Translations under genes and position numbers: made by a program
Shown: positions 4,240 to 27,183 of the stretch, piece by piece
Layout of the letters: the number at the start of each line of letters is the position of its first letter
Numbering within the stretch: position 1 is the stretch's first letter
Notes under the pieces: generated by a model
The model's input: the letters and a program-made list of their open reading frames with translations, nothing else
Told to the model about the DNA's origin: nothing
Database searches by the model: none
Origin: Ignavibacteria bacterium GWF2_33_9
Lineage (GTDB): Bacteria > Bacteroidota > Ignavibacteria > Kapaibacteriales > UBA2268
Length of the DNA: 55,851 bases
NCBI GenBank assembly: GCA_001804565.1
Contig: MHAC01000077.1
Coordinates: forward strand, 1-55,851
Reading direction: 5' to 3'

Positions 4240-6300
4240 ATGAAGAAAATACTCGTATATCTTGCAGCAATCATTTTATTCAATGTTTTTGCACTGCAGG
4301 CAGAAGAAGGAATGTGGACTTATGATAATTTACCGACTGAAGCATTGCAGAAAAATTATGGATTTACTCCTTCTGCAAGTTGGCTTGAACATTTGCGACT
4401 TTCCAGCGTGATGGTTAATGCGGGAGGTTCAGCTTCCTTTGTTTCTCAGGATGGACTTGTGATGACAAATCATCATGTGGGAGTGGGGTATATTCAAAAG
4501 ATTTCTGACGACAAGAATGATTATGTGAAAGATGGTTTTTACGCAAAAGAACAAAAAGACGAAAAGCCGTGTTATAATGCAGTGATGAGTGTGCTGGTAA
4601 ATATGGAAAATGTAACCGAAAGAATTCATAAAGCGATACCTCAGAACGCAACGGCACAAAAAGCTGCAGAAATAAGAAAAGAAGAAATTCGGAAAATCGA
4701 AAAAGAATATTTTGACAAAAATAAATTGAAAACAGATGTAGTGAAATTTTACAATGGCGGAGAATACTGGGTGTATCAGTATAAACAGTATTTCGATATT
4801 CGTCTTGTTTTCGCTCCGGAGCAAAAAATTGCATATTTCGGAGGGGATAACGACAATTTCACTTATCCACGCCACGATTTGGATATTTGTTTTTTCCGTG
4901 TTTACGAAAATGATAAGCCTGCCAAAATCGAAAATTATCTAAAATGGAATGCAAACGGACCAACAGCAGAAGAATTGGTATTCATTAGCGGCCATCCTGC
5001 CGGAACCGACAGATTGAAAACACTGGCGCAACTTGAATATAATCGTGACGTTATGATACCTATGCGTCTGGCAACAATTGATTTACAACTTAATATTCTG
5101 AAACGATTTGCAGAAAGAGGTATAGAGCAGGCACGTCAAGCAAAAATCAAACTCTTTTACCTCGAAAACAGCAAAAAATCTCTGACCGGTCAATTGAAAG
5201 GTTTGAAGGATAATGAATTGATGGCAATTAAGATTCAAAACGAAGAAGAATTTTTGACGAAGATGAAAACGAATTCTGTTTGGGTTGAAAAATATATGGA
5301 TTCATACGAAAAAATTAAATCAACACTCGCAACGAGAAAAGAAGGACAAATCCAAAATTATTACAAGAATTTTTCATCTGAAATTTTTCATAAAGCACTT
5401 GGAATAGTTCGCTACGTTACGGAAATTCAAAAACCTGAAGCAGAAAGATTGCCCGGATATGCAGATGCAGATTTGAAGCATGTGAAAGAAGGACTCACTT
5501 CCGGTGCACCAATTTACAAAGAAATGGATGAAGAACTATCTTTTGCTGATATTAAGATGGGACTTTCCAGAGTCGGAGTTTTTGATAAATTCTGGAAAAC
5601 TGCACTGGAAGGAATGGAACCAAGGGATTTTCTGAATAATTTATTTGCAAATACTAACCTGGAAAATCCTCAGGCAAGACGTGCACTATTATCCGGTGGA
5701 CTCGATGCAATTAATAATTCCAAAGATGCAATGATTAAATTAGCACTTAAACTTGACCCGATAATGCGAGATATAGATAAAGAAAACCGTGAAGATTTCA
5801 ATGACATTATTAGTAAAGCTGAAGAAAAACTTGCAGAAGCACGGTTCGAAATGTTTGGTAAATCCAAATATCCTGATGCGAATTTTACACTCCGCTTAAC
5901 TTATGGTACTGTAACAGGATATCCGTACAACGGAACTATAGCTCCGCCATTCACAACAATGTATGGACTTTTTAATGAGTCATTAGCTTTCGGGGAAAAG
6001 GGAGATTATAAATTGCCCAAGAAATATTGGGATAATTTGAAAAATATAGATTTGTCCACTCCGATGAATTTCGTATCAACCTGCGACATAATAGGAGGAA
6101 ATTCCGGTTCACCTTGTGTGAATAAAAACGGCGAATTAGTTGGAATAGTATTCGACGGTAATATTGAATCACTCCCGGGCAAATTCGTTTATGATATTCG
6201 TAATAATCGTGCAGTAAATGTTGATTCAAAATATATTTTGGAAGTATTGGGCAAGATATACGGAGCAACACGTTTAGTGAAAGAAATAACTGGAAAATAA
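4240..6300 (+). CDS. S46-family dipeptidyl peptidase (DPP7-like)
   Basis: EEGMW N-terminus, TNHHV (His), DNDNF (Asp), GGNSGSP (Ser). FDGN (Gly, not the Arg of DPP11) suggests DPP7-like specificity. Confidence 0.92.
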   Translation: MKKILVYLAAIILFNVFALQAEEGMWTYDNLPTEALQKNYGFTPSASWLEHLRLSSVMVNAGGSASFVSQDGLVMTNHHVGVGYIQKISDDKNDYVKDGFYAKEQKDEKPCYNAVMSVLVNMENVTERIHKAIPQNATAQKAAEIRKEEIRKIEKEYFDKNKLKTDVVKFYNGGEYWVYQYKQYFDIRLVFAPEQKIAYFGGDNDNFTYPRHDLDICFFRVYENDKPAKIENYLKWNANGPTAEELVFISGHPAGTDRLKTLAQLEYNRDVMIPMRLATIDLQLNILKRFAERGIEQARQAKIKLFYLENSKKSLTGQLKGLKDNELMAIKIQNEEEFLTKMKTNSVWVEKYMDSYEKIKSTLATRKEGQIQNYYKNFSSEIFHKALGIVRYVTEIQKPEAERLPGYADADLKHVKEGLTSGAPIYKEMDEELSFADIKMGLSRVGVFDKFWKTALEGMEPRDFLNNLFANTNLENPQARRALLSGGLDAINNSKDAMIKLALKLDPIMRDIDKENREDFNDIISKAEEKLAEARFEMFGKSKYPDANFTLRLTYGTVTGYPYNGTIAPPFTTMYGLFNESLAFGEKGDYKLPKKYWDNLKNIDLSTPMNFVSTCDIIGGNSGSPCVNKNGELVGIVFDGNIESLPGKFVYDIRNNRAVNVDSKYILEVLGKIYGATRLVKEITGK

Positions 6301-24290: not shown

Positions 24291-24989
24291 ATGAGCAAAA
24301 TTAATGAAGTTTGGGATTTGGCGAGTTTACGCTACACGTCCCACCCATGGCATGGCATTTCAATCGGCGAAAAAGCACCTGATATAGTTACGTGTTTTAT
24401 TGAACTTATTCCAAGCGATACTGTAAAATATGAGTTGGACAAGTATTCGGGATATTTGAAAGTGGACCGTCCACAAAAATTCTCCTCTCTTGTTCCTGCA
24501 CTTTATGGTTTTATCCCACAGACATATTGCAACGAAAGAATTGGTGAATTCTGCGAGAAGCAGACAGGTAGAAATGAAATTGTCGGCGATGGTGATCCTT
24601 TGGATGTACTGGTTCTCTCAGAGAGGAATATCAATCACGGGAACATACTTGTGCATGCAATTCCGATTGGTGGTTTCCGAATGATTGATGGAGGCGAAGC
24701 TGATGATAAAATCATTGCGATTCTCCAACAGGATGAAGTTTACAAGGATTGGAAGGATGTTTCGGATTTGCCTGAATCGCTTATAAATCGTCTGAAACAC
24801 TATTTCCTGACTTATAAAGATATGCCCGGTGCAGAAATGTCACGATGTGAGATTACTCACACTTATGGTGCTGAAGAAGCAAAGGAAGTAATACGCTTGA
24901 GTCAGCAGGATTATTTAGATAATTTCGGCAACATTCATTCTAAGTTGTCACGTGCTGCTTGGGATGCAATAAACAGGATAAAGAAATAA
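24291..24989 (+). CDS. ppa: Inorganic pyrophosphatase (family I)
   Basis: HPWHG, KYELDK, YGFIPQTY, DGDPLD, DDKIIA and FLTYK motifs. Confidence 0.95.
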   Translation: MSKINEVWDLASLRYTSHPWHGISIGEKAPDIVTCFIELIPSDTVKYELDKYSGYLKVDRPQKFSSLVPALYGFIPQTYCNERIGEFCEKQTGRNEIVGDGDPLDVLVLSERNINHGNILVHAIPIGGFRMIDGGEADDKIIAILQQDEVYKDWKDVSDLPESLINRLKHYFLTYKDMPGAEMSRCEITHTYGAEEAKEVIRLSQQDYLDNFGNIHSKLSRAAWDAINRIKK

Positions 24990-25060
24990 CGATAGATACA
25001 AAAAAAAATGTTGACTCTTGGTGTACCTAGACACTTAGTTTTTCGATTATTTTCATTTTC

Positions 25061-25230
25061 TGACTAACGAAATGGACGCTGGCTCTTAAGCCGCATCGGT
25101 AACGCACTTCAAAGTACGCAAGGAACTGATTTTGGGAGACGTGAAAATCGTGGAGAACACGCTGAACGAACTAATCAAAATCGTTCTGCGAGTGAACGGA
25201 TACGCCGTAGCGAGCCATTACCGCACATCA
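25061..25230 (+). other. Structured non-coding element (degenerate attC-like site or ncRNA)
   Basis: GC-richer stretch with long-range pairing aatgg-a-cgct-ggc (25071-25083) / gcc-gt-agcg-ag-ccatt (25204-25219), inner hairpin gaacga...tcgttc (25164-25186), and gactaac at the 5' edge. Confidence 0.35.
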
Positions 25231-25232
25231 TA

Positions 25233-25269
25233 CCCCAAATTCATGTTTGGGGGGGGAGGGAGGGGGATT
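25233..25269. repeat. REP-like hairpin plus G-rich tract
   Basis: ccccaaa-ttcatg-tttgggg then ggggagggagggggatt; the reverse complement starts aatccccct, as at 264-272. Confidence 0.45.
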
Positions 25270-25484
25270 AATTGTTATTTGATTTAATATGTTTATTTAT
25301 TGTAATAATTTGTGTATTTTTGAAAATAACATTTTACTGAATACTTTATATTAATATTTAAATTATTTTTTGTATGATAAAACTATTTATTTTATTAAAT
25401 CGTATTTTTAAATGATTGTTTTAGATTCTAATTCTTAAAGTTAAAATTGATTGTTATTATTGATATATTACTGTCGGAGGAACA

Positions 25485-25697
25485 ATGAATATTGAACTCT
25501 TATCAACAAAAATTCTTTCAAAAGAAATCCTAAATAATAATAAAAAAGCTTTTGATATAGTAGAATACTATTCAAACGTTTCATCTATTATTGAAAGAAC
25601 AAAAATTGCTTTAGGAAAAAAAAGAAATTATAGATTGTCTAGTTCTTCTACAAATACCGAAAAAATAGATAATAAACTTTATGCTTCCACGCATTAA
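25485..25697 (+). CDS. Small hypothetical protein (70 aa) coupled to the protease gene
   Basis: SD ggagg upstream of the ATG; overlaps the next CDS by 17 bp; amphipathic helical core (FDIVEYY..VSSIIERTKIALGKK). Confidence 0.7.
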   Translation: MNIELLSTKILSKEILNNNKKAFDIVEYYSNVSSIIERTKIALGKKRNYRLSSSSTNTEKIDNKLYASTH

Positions 25698-26613
25698 AAC
25701 ATCGCAAGATTGGAATAATTTTATTGCTTCAAATCCTCAACTTTCAGGTAATGATTTGTTGACAATGAGGCATAATTGCTATTCTGATATTGAAAAATTA
25801 AGAAAAAGACCATTAATTGTTTATGCAACAAAGTTTTTAGATGCATTACCAAATACTCCAAATTTTATTGATATATCAGATATTGATGGTTTTACTGATT
25901 TGGTTCAATCAATAAATGATTCTGATCAGATTGATGTATTATTACACAGTCCTGGTGGAAGACCTGATGCTACTGAGAGAATTGTACATATTTTAAGAAA
26001 TAAATTTAAAGAAGTTCACTTTTTAGTACCCCATTCTGCTTATTCGGCAGCTACTATGCTTGCTTTATCAGGTAATACTATTACTTTACATCCGAGTGCA
26101 ACATTAGGACCTATCGATCCTCAAATAAATGGTATACCCGCACGTTCGATCAAAAGAGGGTTTGAAAAAGTTAAAGAAATTATTAAAGTTGAAGGACCTG
26201 AAGCACTTCCTGCATATATTCCATTAATTGAAAAATATACTCTTGATTTATTGGAACTATGCGATGACTCGGAGAAATTGTCAAAAGATTTAGTGAGTAA
26301 TTGGATTCGAGAATATATGCTTCAAGGGAATGAAAAGTTTAGTGGTCAAATTGAGAAATCGGTTGATTTCTTTTCAGATTATGACACTCATCTTTTACAT
26401 TCAAGACCCTTAATAATCAGTAAGTTGAAACAATTTGAATTGAATATACTACAAGCTGATGAAGAATTAAGTAATTTGATTTGGGAAGCTTATATTCAGT
26501 TAAATGGTTTTTTTGGACTTTCTCCTTTTGTAAAATTATATGAAAATAATCATAACGTTTCATGGGGTAAACAGTATCAACAAATTTTAGTTCCAAATCA
26601 AAGCCAATCTTAA
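25681..26613 (+). CDS. SDH-family ClpP/crotonase-fold serine proteinase
   Basis: LLHSPGG, AYSAATMLAL (Ser), LGPIDPQ (Asp) and HSRPL (His) in S-D-H order; no signal peptide or TM. Confidence 0.85.
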   Translation: MLPRIKTSQDWNNFIASNPQLSGNDLLTMRHNCYSDIEKLRKRPLIVYATKFLDALPNTPNFIDISDIDGFTDLVQSINDSDQIDVLLHSPGGRPDATERIVHILRNKFKEVHFLVPHSAYSAATMLALSGNTITLHPSATLGPIDPQINGIPARSIKRGFEKVKEIIKVEGPEALPAYIPLIEKYTLDLLELCDDSEKLSKDLVSNWIREYMLQGNEKFSGQIEKSVDFFSDYDTHLLHSRPLIISKLKQFELNILQADEELSNLIWEAYIQLNGFFGLSPFVKLYENNHNVSWGKQYQQILVPNQSQS

Positions 26614-26985
26614 TTCGAATTCTGCTAATATAAATTCAAAAAAAAATTTAACTTTTTTCAAATTGTATGAAGTTTTTTAGATAAAATTCTTTTGTTTTAT
26701 CTTAGATTGTTCGATTGAAGTAATAAGAATTATTCTCAAGATTATCTGATAATTTCTTTAAATAAAGCTGAAAAATAAAAAAAACTTCGTTGTTGGTGGA
26801 ATATGAATTATTTTATCTAATTTTAGAGGATTCATCTATTATAAAATCCCACTCCTTTTGAATAAATTCATTACTCATAATATTTATAATAAAATAATAA
26901 CTCTTTCTTTTTTAACTTTTTACTCTTTGTTAGAATTGCAATTCACATAAAAAGAAATTTAATTATTAAGAAAAGTAATTTTGGT

Positions 26986-27183
26986 CTAGGTTTGGGGATT
27001 CGAGTCACATTCTTCGCAGAGAAAATCACCGAGAGGAAAAGTGAGATTATTCGCTATTCGTGTTTCCGTATTGTTTAAATCGGGAATACGATTAACGAAT
27101 CTGCCTGTACCAAACTCCACCGACTCACCACAATGATTGCAAAACTGATGCAATTCTGGACTATCAAATTTAATTAATTCCAT
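26986..27183 (-). CDS. Small putative zinc-finger protein (CxxC...CxxC)
   Basis: CNHC at residues 15-18 and CEEC at 56-59, with GTGRFVNRIPD between. Confidence 0.7.
   Translation of the reverse strand: MELIKFDSPELHQFCNHCGESVEFGTGRFVNRIPDLNNTETRIANNLTFPLGDFLCEECDSNPQT

What the first reader, a model, noticed from the sequence alone, without database searches (positions are those of the whole stretch)
25485..26613. Candidate two-gene system: 70-aa partner plus cytoplasmic SDH-family ClpP-fold protease on an AT-rich insert
Seen: a small ORF with its own SD overlaps, by 17 bp, a protease with intact Ser-Asp-His motifs (AYSAATML / GPIDPQ / HSRPL) and no export signal. The pair is isolated by very AT-rich spacers between ppa and unrelated core genes. 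Hand-counted GC is 17/60 and 18/60 in two protease lines versus 27/60 and 26/60 in two ppa lines, suggesting horizontal acquisition. Known: SDH-family Clp-fold proteases are poorly characterised and occur sporadically, often in mobile or accessory contexts, and a small protein coupled to a protease is a recurring layout of toxin-antitoxin and anti-phage modules. Inference: the 70-aa protein (helical core, Ser/Thr-rich tail RLSSSSTNTEK) is a dedicated substrate, inhibitor or activator of the protease, forming an undescribed stress or anti-phage module.
Basis: partly seen in the sequence, partly recalled or inferred. Interest (0 to 1): 0.8.

Follow-up and report, generated by a model that had tools for sequence, protein, structure and literature searches.

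The report
Mobile small-protein plus Clp-fold protease cassette
A 70-residue protein and an overlapping cytoplasmic Clp-fold serine protease form a conserved, uncharacterised two-gene cassette that moves between distant bacterial phyla, prophages and defence islands, which makes it a good untested candidate for a new toxin-antitoxin or anti-phage module.

Summary
A 70-aa ORF (25485-25697) overlaps by 17 nt a 310-aa SDH-type ClpP-fold serine protease (25681-26613). The pair has the lowest GC3 in the window.

The small ORF is a real gene. All 76 genome loci whose protease is at least 53% identical carry a homologous 65-85-aa ORF in the same overlapping position. A profile search finds 207 clusters of it, all unannotated. 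Both genes are under purifying selection, with dS saturated (protease omega 0.03-0.13, small protein 0.1-0.4).

Only these two genes are shared between loci. DNA homology starts at the small ORF and ends at the protease stop, and the contexts are unrelated. Hosts include Bacteroidota, Ignavibacteria, Chlorobi, many Patescibacteria and Bdellovibrionales.

Restriction-modification families are the commonest neighbours, and none of them is among the commonest families around a control gene. Some cassettes sit in RM/Abi/TA islands, beside a serine recombinase, or in prophages.

The protease start lacks a ribosome-binding site and lies inside the small ORF. An orphan small gene exists. No protease of at least 53% identity lacks the partner.

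Best reading (about 0.45, function untested): a toxin-antitoxin-like or abortive-infection module in which the small protein controls the protease. No known defence, TA, Pfam or PDB family matches the small protein.

The parts
25441..25477 (+). Likely expression signals of the cassette: a promoter-like site (TTAAAA-17-TATATT with an upstream TG, 25441-25469) and a GGAGG Shine-Dalgarno at 25473-25477
   Evidence: Consensus scan and the sequence itself. This is weak evidence on its own. It is supported by analogy: 20 of 69 related cassettes have a -10-like hexamer 4-10 nt upstream of the small-ORF ATG, against 1-9 at control offsets.
25485..25697 (+). Small partner gene (70 aa): helical residues 3-42, then an unstructured Ser/Thr-rich tail (43-70) with conserved motifs Y29, IIERT, A42-x-G44-K-K, S-T56-x-N and S-T69-H
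   Evidence: ORF. Homologs lie in the same position in 76 of 76 close loci. A profile search found 106 and 207 clusters, all unannotated. dN/dS is 0.1-0.4 with dS saturated. AlphaFold2 pLDDT 72, helix plus disordered tail. No Pfam, PDB, PHROG or PADLOC hit.
25681..25697 (+). 17-nt overlap of the two reading frames. The protease ATG lies inside the small ORF and has no Shine-Dalgarno. The small-ORF stop (TAA) is formed by protease codons I5-K6.
   Evidence: Sequence. The frame relation is the same in all loci. The overlap is 11-50 nt in 67 of 69 loci, and the stop is anchored on the conserved R-[IF]-K codons. Only 4 of 69 protease starts have an SD-like motif.
25681..26613 (+). Cytoplasmic SDH-type ClpP-fold serine protease (310 aa): N-terminal helices, an alpha/beta ClpP core (about 45-150) with nucleophile S122, and a family-specific helical C-terminal domain (154-298) carrying invariant H237/H240
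   Evidence: Pfam PF01972 at 9e-20. phrog_11747 at 2e-50 over the full length. AlphaFold2 pLDDT 85, pTM 0.85. Foldseek top hits are the 1510-N stomatin protease and ClpP. S122 aligns with catalytic Ser97 of 1510-N. More than 1000 homologs, with 66-84% identity across phyla. dN/dS is 0.03-0.13.
25271..25484 (.). Upstream AT-rich spacer (15% GC)
   Evidence: Composition. Not conserved between cassettes.
26614..26985 (.). Downstream AT-rich spacer (20% GC) with no ORF and no similarity to other loci
24992..25009 (+). Left copy of a 16/18 direct repeat (ATAGATACAAAAAAAAAT). The right copy lies at 26630-26647 (ATAAATTCAAAAAAAAAT). This may be an insertion scar bracketing 25010-26647, or it may be chance in A-rich DNA.
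   Evidence: Repeat search, family D5. No empty site could be found to test it.

Best explanation
This is an autonomous, horizontally mobile two-gene accessory module: promoter, small protein, then a translationally coupled protease. It most likely works like a toxin-antitoxin or abortive-infection system.

The ClpP-fold Ser protease is the effector. The 70-aa protein is its dedicated controller. It is made first and in at least equal amounts, because the protease start codon sits inside its reading frame and has no ribosome-binding site of its own.

The controller probably docks through its conserved helix (Y..K...IIERT..A.G+K). Its extended Ser/Thr tail, which carries two near-invariant Thr residues, probably lies in the substrate groove as a pseudo-substrate or slow substrate and keeps the protease quiet.

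The small protein could be depleted or displaced in several ways: phage infection, shut-off of host translation, or loss of the element. The freed protease would then cleave a conserved cellular or phage target and stop growth or abort the infection. A conserved target could help explain the extreme conservation of the protease across phyla.

Shown: gene linkage, overlap and coupling; purifying selection on both genes; intact catalytic motifs; mobility; enrichment near RM, Abi, TA, recombinase and prophage genes; an orphan small gene but no orphan protease among close relatives.

Inferred: physical binding, inhibition, the trigger, the target and the phenotype.
For: - Strict pairing: all 76 genome loci with at least 53% protease identity have the small ORF in the same overlapping register.
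- All-versus-all clustering of ORFs within +/-5 kb finds only these two genes shared.
- DNA similarity starts at the small-ORF start and ends at the protease stop.
- Contexts are unrelated: ppa here, between dxr and rseP in L001, after radA in L003, after ribonucleotide reductase in L006.
- Distribution is patchy: 196 relatives in a collection of 185,579 species genomes, across at least 8 phyla.
- The cassette is a compositional outlier in the window.
- The commonest Pfam families among 128 nearest and 114 second-nearest neighbours are RM types: Eco57I, GmrSD_N, HNH, MmeI_Mtase, N6_Mtase, EcoRI_methylase, Methylase_S and ResIII. None of these is among the 25 commonest families for 114 neighbours of the control gene ppa.
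- Explicit islands: OLD-TOPRIM, type I RM, Fic, PIN-RHH and AbiEii; RM plus a large serine recombinase; Mrr, type I RM and a helicase; next to portal and terminase genes.
- Prophage contexts: in L089 the pair lies on the opposite strand to the flanking phage genes, as accessory ('moron') genes often do. Distant full-length relatives with an upstream small ORF occur in a Klebsiella record next to phage-type genes (RusA, antiterminator), next to a P. aeruginosa integrase, beside HicAB in P. gingivalis phages, and in Gordonia and Shewanella phages.
- Coupling: the protease ATG lies 11-50 nt inside the small ORF, and an SD-like motif occurs at only 4 of 69 protease starts.
- An orphan small gene with the protease cleanly absent occurs in L194/L195. 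No protease of at least 53% identity lacks the partner.
- The small protein evolves faster (omega 0.1-0.4) than the protease (0.03-0.13), as antitoxins usually do.
- Predicted structure: helix plus disordered tail. The protease fold and its Ser are intact.
Against: - No experiment exists, and no interaction model could be computed.
- Neither protein matches any PADLOC defence model or any known TA family.
- The small protein has no recognisable DNA-binding domain of the kind typical of type II antitoxins.
- Most loci, including this window, lie among housekeeping genes, so the defence-island signal covers only a minority of loci. Part of it comes from related Patescibacteria genomes, and the control set has a different taxonomic make-up.
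- 60-84% protein identity across phyla with saturated synonymous sites is atypical for toxins and defence genes, which usually diversify. It would fit a constrained housekeeping-like machine equally well.
- The general base of the protease is unresolved (H240 or H237, as the family's Ser-Asp-His order suggests, or K158 by analogy with 1510-N). The H240 loop is modelled with low confidence.
Confidence: 0.45

Rival explanations
1. Protease plus dedicated substrate. The small protein is a precursor. The protease cuts near the conserved A-x-G-[KR]-[KR] junction, or within the tail, and releases a Ser/Thr-rich peptide of about 25-30 residues, or the helical part, that carries the biological activity (a signal, regulator or effector).
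For: The layout resembles a leader plus core: a conserved helix, a conserved junction motif and a more variable tail. The closest solved relative, 1510-N, cleaves the product of its operon partner, stomatin (the partner relation is from established knowledge of PH1510/PH1511).
Against: No modification enzyme, exporter or receptor gene is shared between loci. The tail is not hypervariable; it holds two near-invariant Thr residues and an S-T-x-N motif. Neither protein has an export signal. An orphan small gene persists without the protease.
Confidence: 0.17
2. An accessory stress or quality-control protease with an obligate assembly factor or adaptor. The small protein activates, assembles or delivers substrates to a self-compartmentalising ClpP-like oligomer that benefits the host directly. 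It is neither a poison nor an immunity device.
For: The whole protease is extremely conserved across phyla, as expected for an oligomeric machine with many contact surfaces. Most loci lie among housekeeping genes, and the upstream neighbour is on the same strand in 53 of 67 loci. The loop carrying H240 is poorly ordered in the monomer model and could need a partner.
Against: The module occurs in only 196 places in a collection of 185,579 species genomes and in unrelated contexts. It is carried by prophages and recombinase islets and is enriched next to RM, Abi and TA genes. The orphan small gene is hard to explain if the small protein is only an adaptor.
Confidence: 0.18
3. A phage-derived counter-defence or host-takeover module. 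The protease degrades a host protein (for example a defence or repressor protein) for the benefit of the phage or mobile element. Chromosomal copies are remnants.
For: The full-length family phrog_11747 and distant relatives occur in phages and prophages. P. gingivalis CRISPR spacers target 'DUF114' genes (PMC5570325). SDH proteases are abundant in giant viruses.
Against: The close clade is almost entirely chromosomal: only 1 of 12 viral-contig hits exceeds 40% identity. It stands alone between housekeeping genes with no other phage genes. It is kept intact under strong purifying selection in tiny Patescibacteria genomes.
Confidence: 0.1
4. The small ORF is not a separate gene. It is either a chance ORF in AT-rich DNA or the N-terminal part of a fusion protein made by programmed +1 frameshifting.
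For: The two frames always stand in the same +1 relation and always overlap.
Against: The small protein is conserved at the protein level while synonymous sites are saturated. It is recognisable even in a 65% GC Gemmatimonadota genome. Every protease frame has its own ATG within or next to the overlap, the overlap length varies from 11 to 50 nt, and there is no conserved slippery site. An orphan copy stands alone.
Confidence: 0.03

Closest known systems
SDH-type ClpP-fold serine proteinases (Pfam PF01972, formerly DUF114; MEROPS S49-related)
   Same: The Pfam match is above the cut-off. The fold is ClpP-like. The nucleophile Ser lies in the G/A-x-S-A-A/G motif. The invariant Ser, Asp and His follow in the order that, from my memory of the Pfam description, gives the family its name.
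   Different: Only the N-terminal half of the Pfam and NCBIfam models aligns (positions 22-175 of 286 and 12-160 of 260). The NCBIfam equivalog score is far below its cut-off (81.6 against 250 bits). The helical C-terminal domain of about 140 residues is specific to this subfamily and to phrog_11747. The obligate overlapping small partner has not been described for the family.
1510-N (PH1510) NfeD-type stomatin-specific protease and its operon partner stomatin PH1511
   Same: It is the best solved-structure match by both sequence and fold. The catalytic Ser aligns. Both are operon pairs of a ClpP-fold protease with a partner protein whose extended C-terminal region enters the active site (3viv is a complex with a substrate peptide).
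   Different: 1510-N is membrane-bound, uses a Ser-Lys dyad and carries a C-terminal OB domain, and its partner is a large SPFH/stomatin protein. Here both proteins are soluble, the partner has 70 residues and no SPFH domain, and the pair is a mobile cassette rather than a conserved membrane operon.
Type II toxin-antitoxin modules and abortive-infection pairs (for example AbiE, HicAB, VapBC, which lie next to it in some loci)
   Same: A small upstream gene is translationally coupled to a larger effector. The upstream partner evolves faster. The distribution is patchy and horizontal. The module is carried on prophages and islands. An orphan copy of the small gene exists.
   Different: No sequence or profile similarity to any known TA or defence family. 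No DNA-binding fold was detected in the small protein. I know of no described TA toxin with a ClpP fold, and the paper searches found none. The protease is far more conserved than typical toxins.
ClpP-related phage head-maturation proteases with scaffolding proteins
   Same: Weak profile similarity of the catalytic core (NF045542 at 1e-7, phrog_1684 at 3.5e-8). A helical small protein is encoded next to a protease.
   Different: No portal, capsid or terminase gene is linked to the pair. In prophage L089 the pair lies on the opposite strand to the flanking phage genes, separately from the portal gene. The small protein precedes the protease rather than following it.

Membership tests
SDH-type ClpP-fold serine proteinase (Pfam PF01972) | Score above Pfam's gathering threshold | tested here: met
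   71.2 bits against a 31.3 cut-off, E 9.3e-20, residues 15-165.
SDH-type ClpP-fold serine proteinase (Pfam PF01972) | NCBIfam equivalog NF047768 (Clp_like_SDH) score above its cut-off | tested here: not met
   81.6 bits against a 250 cut-off; only model positions 12-160 of 260 align. This is a divergent subfamily, not an equivalog.
SDH-type ClpP-fold serine proteinase (Pfam PF01972) | ClpP/crotonase-like alpha/beta fold with the nucleophile Ser at the start of a helix | tested here: met
   AlphaFold2 pLDDT 85. Foldseek hits to 1510-N and ClpP at probability 1.00. S122 aligns with catalytic Ser97 of 1510-N.
SDH-type ClpP-fold serine proteinase (Pfam PF01972) | Catalytic Ser, Asp and His in that order along the sequence | tested here: inconclusive
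   S122, D146, H237 and H240 are invariant in 49 sequences. The H240 loop has pLDDT below 50. Invariant K158 is an alternative base by analogy with 1510-N.
Type II toxin-antitoxin system | Two adjacent co-transcribed genes, with the small one coupled to the effector | tested here: met
   Overlap of 11-50 nt in 67 of 69 loci and no SD before the protease.
Type II toxin-antitoxin system | One product is toxic and is neutralised by direct binding of the other | not testable with these tools
   Needs expression and binding experiments. Co-folding was not available.
Type II toxin-antitoxin system | Homology to a known toxin or antitoxin family, or a DNA-binding antitoxin domain | tested here: not met
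   No Pfam, NCBIfam, PDB or PADLOC match for the small protein. The protease matches only protease families.
Known anti-phage defence systems (PADLOC-DB 2.0) | Match to a defence-system protein model | tested here: not met
   No hit at E <= 1 for the window pair. None at E <= 0.01 for five distant relatives of the protease and three of their upstream small ORFs.
Known anti-phage defence systems (PADLOC-DB 2.0) | Preferential location in defence islands or on mobile elements | tested here: inconclusive
   RM families are the commonest neighbours and are not among the commonest families in the ppa control. Four clear island or prophage contexts were found. However, most loci, including the window, are among housekeeping genes, and the control is not taxon-matched.
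NfeD/stomatin protease-substrate operon | The partner is an SPFH/stomatin protein; the protease is membrane-anchored with a C-terminal OB domain | tested here: not met
   The partner has no Pfam domain. The protease has no hydrophobic segment and has a helical C-terminal domain. NfeD1b_N scores 24.3 bits, below its cut-off of 40.
Phage head-maturation protease plus scaffold | Linkage to portal and major capsid genes | tested here: not met
   No third gene is shared within +/-5 kb in 77 loci. Only weak core similarity was found.
RiPP precursor plus leader peptidase | Co-located modification enzyme and/or exporter; hypervariable core peptide | tested here: not met
   No such gene is shared. The tail has conserved positions.

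The most novel reading that the evidence does not exclude
A new class of toxin-antitoxin or abortive-infection system whose effector is a ClpP-fold (SDH-type) serine protease. The protease is held inactive by a 70-residue partner that threads a Ser/Thr-rich pseudo-substrate tail into the active site. It is released on infection to cleave a universally conserved cellular target. This would explain both its transfer across phyla (Patescibacteria, Bacteroidota, Bdellovibrionota, prophages) and its extreme sequence conservation.
Probability: 0.3. Interest if true: 0.8.

Novelty: new variant of a known kind. Interest (0 to 1): 0.62.

Why it matters
If the module is a protease-based toxin-antitoxin or anti-phage system, it would add an effector type (a ClpP-fold protease gated by a small protein made in trans) that current catalogues of defence systems do not contain. 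It would also give a function to a conserved family of about 200 clusters of small proteins and more than 1000 proteases, all now labelled 'hypothetical'.

It is unusually common in Patescibacteria, Bdellovibrionales and Bacteroidota, groups whose immunity and addiction systems are poorly known.

Its near-invariance across phyla suggests a very conserved target or assembly, which would be of interest for protease biology.

Distant relatives in Klebsiella, Pseudomonas, Gordonia, Shewanella and Porphyromonas mobile elements make the idea directly testable in culturable hosts.

Tried and rejected
- Single-sequence word-index search for the small protein found only itself. This was a sensitivity limit, not absence; contexts and a profile search then found the family.
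- Rfam and tRNA scans around the cassette found nothing.
- PADLOC found nothing for the window pair or for distant relatives.
- Pfam, NCBIfam, PHROGs and PDB found nothing meaningful for the small protein. The DUF4108 and HalA hits (E about 0.01, far below cut-off) were rejected as noise.
- Empty-site test: I scanned metagenomes with the neighbouring ppa protein to find relatives lacking the insert. The best relative was only 74% identical and none shared synteny, so the test failed.
- I looked for terminal inverted or direct repeats shared by cassettes. There are none; homology ends at the ORF boundaries. The window has only one 16/18 A-rich direct repeat of uncertain meaning.
- Programmed frameshift fusion was rejected: each protease has its own ATG, the overlap length varies, and there is no slippery site.
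- Profile comparison of the small-protein family with the upstream small ORFs of distant relatives (27-32% identity): no detectable homology for the Pseudomonas, Gordonia and Klebsiella ORFs (the longer Porphyromonas and Shewanella upstream ORFs were not compared), and only a marginal hit for the 38% clade (E 5e-4, probability 31%). The shared layout there is positional only.
- Five literature searches found no description of this pair. The 'DUF114' hits were mostly other DUF numbers.
- E. coli genomes hold no DNA similar to the Klebsiella relative.
- Naming the window's organism through cluster members failed.
- Co-folding of the pair was not possible with the tools on hand.
Full report
**1. 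What is there**

The window has a 70-aa ORF at 25485-25697 (+) and a 310-aa ORF at 25681-26613 (+) that overlap by 17 nt. A GGAGG lies 7 nt before the first ATG.

The large protein is an SDH-type ClpP-fold serine protease. It matches Pfam PF01972 at 71.2 bits against a cut-off of 31.3. The NCBIfam equivalog model is matched only over its N-terminal half and well below its cut-off (81.6 against 250 bits). The PHROG family phrog_11747 (unknown function) matches over the full length at 2e-50.

The pair lies between ppa (24291-24989) and a minus-strand block (a 65-aa zinc-ribbon ORF, a membrane protein, DUF5683, ZnuA).

It is a compositional outlier. Protease GC is 0.308 and GC3 0.164; the small ORF has 0.230 and 0.127. 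The 35 window ORFs of at least 150 aa average 0.362 +/- 0.023 and 0.292 +/- 0.037, and the protease GC3 is the lowest of all. The spacers at 25271-25484 and 26614-26985 are 15% and 20% GC, but 25000-25270 is a 45% GC island.

**2. The small ORF is a real, conserved gene that is strictly tied to the protease**

A single-sequence search found only the query itself. However, the gene neighbourhoods of three protease homologs each showed a 70-76-aa ORF overlapping the protease start, and these small proteins align with the window's.

A scan of 185,579 species genomes found 196 protease relatives. All 76 of the kept loci with at least 53% protease identity carry the small ORF. This includes a 65% GC Gemmatimonadota genome, where the protein is still recognisable.

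The family consensus is Y-x-K-x3-I-I-E-R-T-x2-A-x-G-[KR]-K ... S-T-x-N ... S-T-[TH]. Y29, A42, G44, T56 and T69 are invariant or nearly so.

A profile search found 106 clusters at 90% identity and 207 clusters at 50% identity. Almost all are stand-alone proteins of roughly 45-130 aa, and none has a name or a Pfam domain. There is no Pfam, NCBIfam, PHROG, PADLOC or PDB match.

Synonymous sites between cassettes are saturated (dS above 1, or not computable). dN/dS is 0.03-0.13 for the protease and 0.1-0.4 for the non-overlapping part of the small gene. Both genes are therefore translated and under purifying selection. The 66-84% identity of the listed close homologs, which span several phyla, reflects constraint and not recent spread.

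**3. Anatomy of the unit**

All-versus-all clustering of ORFs within +/-5 kb of 77 loci finds only these two genes in common. Nucleotide similarity between cassettes begins at the small-ORF start and ends at the protease stop, with no shared flanks or terminal repeats.

The two frames always stand in the same relation. The small-ORF stop is usually built from the protease's conserved [IF]-K codons, and the protease ATG lies 11-50 nt inside the small ORF in 67 of 69 loci. Only 4 of 69 protease starts have an SD-like motif. Protease synthesis is therefore probably coupled to translation of the small gene.

Twenty of 69 cassettes have a -10-like hexamer 4-10 nt before the small-ORF ATG, against 1-9 at control offsets. 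The Patescibacteria clade shows a complete TTGAxx-17-TGnTAyAAT promoter ending 9 nt before the ATG, which implies a near-leaderless mRNA. The unit thus appears to be promoter, small gene, then coupled protease.

**4. Structures**

The protease model is confident (pLDDT 85, pTM 0.85). It has N-terminal helices, a ClpP-type alpha/beta core and a helical C-terminal domain of about 140 residues.

The best solved matches are the stomatin-specific protease 1510-N and ClpP. By sequence, S122 aligns with catalytic Ser97 of 1510-N. S122, D146, H237, H240 and K158 are invariant.

Its geometry could not be checked, and the H240 loop is modelled with low confidence.

The small protein is predicted as helices 3-42 followed by an unstructured tail 43-70 (pLDDT 72).

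**5. Distribution and neighbourhood**

Hosts include Bacteroidota (many families), Ignavibacteriaceae, Chloroherpeton, about 30 Patescibacteria, Bdellovibrionales, Omnitrophota, Chloroflexota, Gemmatimonadota and others. All are MAGs.

Contexts differ: ppa here, between dxr and rseP in L001, after radA in L003, after ribonucleotide reductase in L006.

- Among 128 nearest and 114 second-nearest neighbour ORFs, the commonest Pfam families are restriction-modification types: Eco57I 5+4, GmrSD_N 5+2, HNH 5, MmeI_Mtase 4, N6_Mtase 3+2, EcoRI_methylase 1+3, Methylase_S 2, ResIII 2. PADLOC agrees.
- The same procedure on 114 neighbours of the housekeeping gene ppa in about 30 metagenome loci puts no RM family among the 25 commonest. 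This control lacks Patescibacteria, so the enrichment is suggestive and not quantitative.
- L187: the cassette lies at the edge of an island with OLD-TOPRIM/AAA, type I RM, Fic, PIN-RHH and AbiEii.
- L190-192: GIY-YIG, a methyltransferase with a MutH-like nuclease, HARE-HTH, the cassette, then a large serine recombinase.
- L196: Mrr, type I RM and a DEAD helicase.
- L197: next to portal and terminase genes.
- L089: a prophage in which the pair lies on the opposite strand to the flanking phage genes.

Full-length relatives at 27-32% identity occur in several culturable hosts or their phages, each with an upstream small ORF of 58-112 aa (58-68 aa in three of them):

- a Klebsiella plasmid record, among phage-type genes (RusA, antiterminator);
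- a P. aeruginosa plasmid record, next to an integrase;
- P. gingivalis prophages, beside HicAB;
- Gordonia phage BeeGee;
- a Shewanella Mu-like phage.

The three short ORFs that were compared with the family profile show no detectable homology to it.

An orphan small gene with the protease cleanly replaced exists in 13 contigs. No protease of the close clade lacks the partner. Three distant proteases (43-45% identity) have no small ORF but carry an N-terminal extension.

**6. Interpretation**

The data show an autonomous, horizontally mobile two-gene accessory module.

The layout is that of toxin-antitoxin and abortive-infection pairs: a small, faster-evolving upstream gene coupled to a larger enzyme; patchy distribution; carriage on prophages and islets; neighbours rich in RM, Abi and TA genes; and an orphan small gene but no orphan enzyme.

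I therefore favour (about 0.45) a model in which the small protein restrains the protease, plausibly with its tail acting as a pseudo-substrate. Depletion or displacement of the small protein would free the protease to cleave a conserved target.

Rivals are:

- a precursor-processing pair (0.17);
- an accessory protease with an obligate adaptor or assembly factor (0.18), which the extreme conservation and the many housekeeping contexts favour;
- a phage counter-defence module (0.10);
- a spurious or frameshift-fused ORF (0.03, essentially refuted).

Nothing about binding, toxicity, trigger or target is shown.

**7. Comparison and novelty**

At Pfam level the protease belongs to the SDH ClpP-fold family, but it forms a divergent subfamily with its own C-terminal domain. 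The nearest characterised system, 1510-N with stomatin, shares the idea of a protease paired with an operon partner whose tail enters the active site. It differs in membrane location, partner type and genomic behaviour.

No known TA or defence family is matched, and five literature searches found no description of the pair.

I rate it a new variant of a known kind (mobile two-gene accessory or TA-like modules) with an unprecedented effector-partner combination. It is of moderate to high interest and directly testable in culturable relatives.

Noticed in passing
window 25000-25270 (and 25299-25326): A 45% GC non-coding island lies inside the otherwise 15-20% GC spacer between ppa and the cassette, with a G-run at 25243-25265. 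The minus strand folds better than shuffled sequence (z -2.4). It has a promoter-like site upstream (25326..25299) and a T9 run at its end (25001-25009). There is no Rfam hit, no coding potential and no copy elsewhere. It could be an unknown small RNA or a gene remnant.
   Followed up: partly
window 24992-25009 and 26630-26647: A 16/18 direct repeat (ATAGATACAAAAAAAAAT / ATAAATTCAAAAAAAAAT) sits right after the ppa stop and right after the protease stop. It brackets the GC island plus the cassette (1638 bp). It may be an insertion scar or chance in A-rich DNA.
   Followed up: partly
L194 3024-3260 and L195 2420-2656: An orphan copy of the small gene (78 aa, seen in 13 contigs) is followed directly by a DsrE-family gene, with no trace of the protease. 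An HNH fragment lies upstream.
   Followed up: yes
L084, L085, L086 (protease matches at 5780, 3686 and 6001): Distant proteases (43-45% identity; Thermoleophilia, Thermodesulfobacteriota) have no upstream small ORF. Instead they carry a basic N-terminal extension of about 55 residues in the protease frame.
   Followed up: partly
L018, L019, L033, L035, L041, L042, L078 and others, about 40 nt before the small ORF: Patescibacteria-clade cassettes carry a complete TTGAxx-17-TGnTAyAAT promoter ending 9 nt before the small-ORF ATG. This implies a leaderless or near-leaderless transcript.
   Followed up: partly
L014, L044, L051, L055, L058, L059 (1-3 kb from the cassette): The same EcoRI-like adenine methyltransferase plus GmrSD_N(DUF262)-HNH nuclease pair lies beside the cassette in most of these six loci. 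The six come from Patescibacteria, unclassified bins and one Bacteroidales bin. The pair lies upstream in some and downstream in others, which suggests co-transfer or a shared island.
   Followed up: partly
L182 3786-3962 (Gordonia phage BeeGee, MW601219.1 26498-26674): An unannotated 58-aa ORF ends exactly at the start of gp31, the protease relative. Its tail is ...VRYSTSATR. It is probably a missed gene.
   Followed up: partly
BFVD hits to the protease model: SDH-type proteases are the best viral structural matches and occur in many copies in giant viruses (Klosneuvirus, Hyperionvirus, Harvfovirus, Marseillevirus-like).
   Followed up: no
L189 10200-11200: The protease next to an intact small gene is split into at least four frame-shifted pieces. 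Many other genes on this long-read contig are also split, so this is probably assembly error rather than a pseudogene.
   Followed up: partly
window 26986-27183 (-): A 65-aa ORF with two CxxC pairs (zinc-ribbon-like; weak DZR and Zn_ribbon_8 hits) lies just downstream of the cassette on the opposite strand. It is called as a gene in the source contigs and is not shared with other cassette loci.
   Followed up: no
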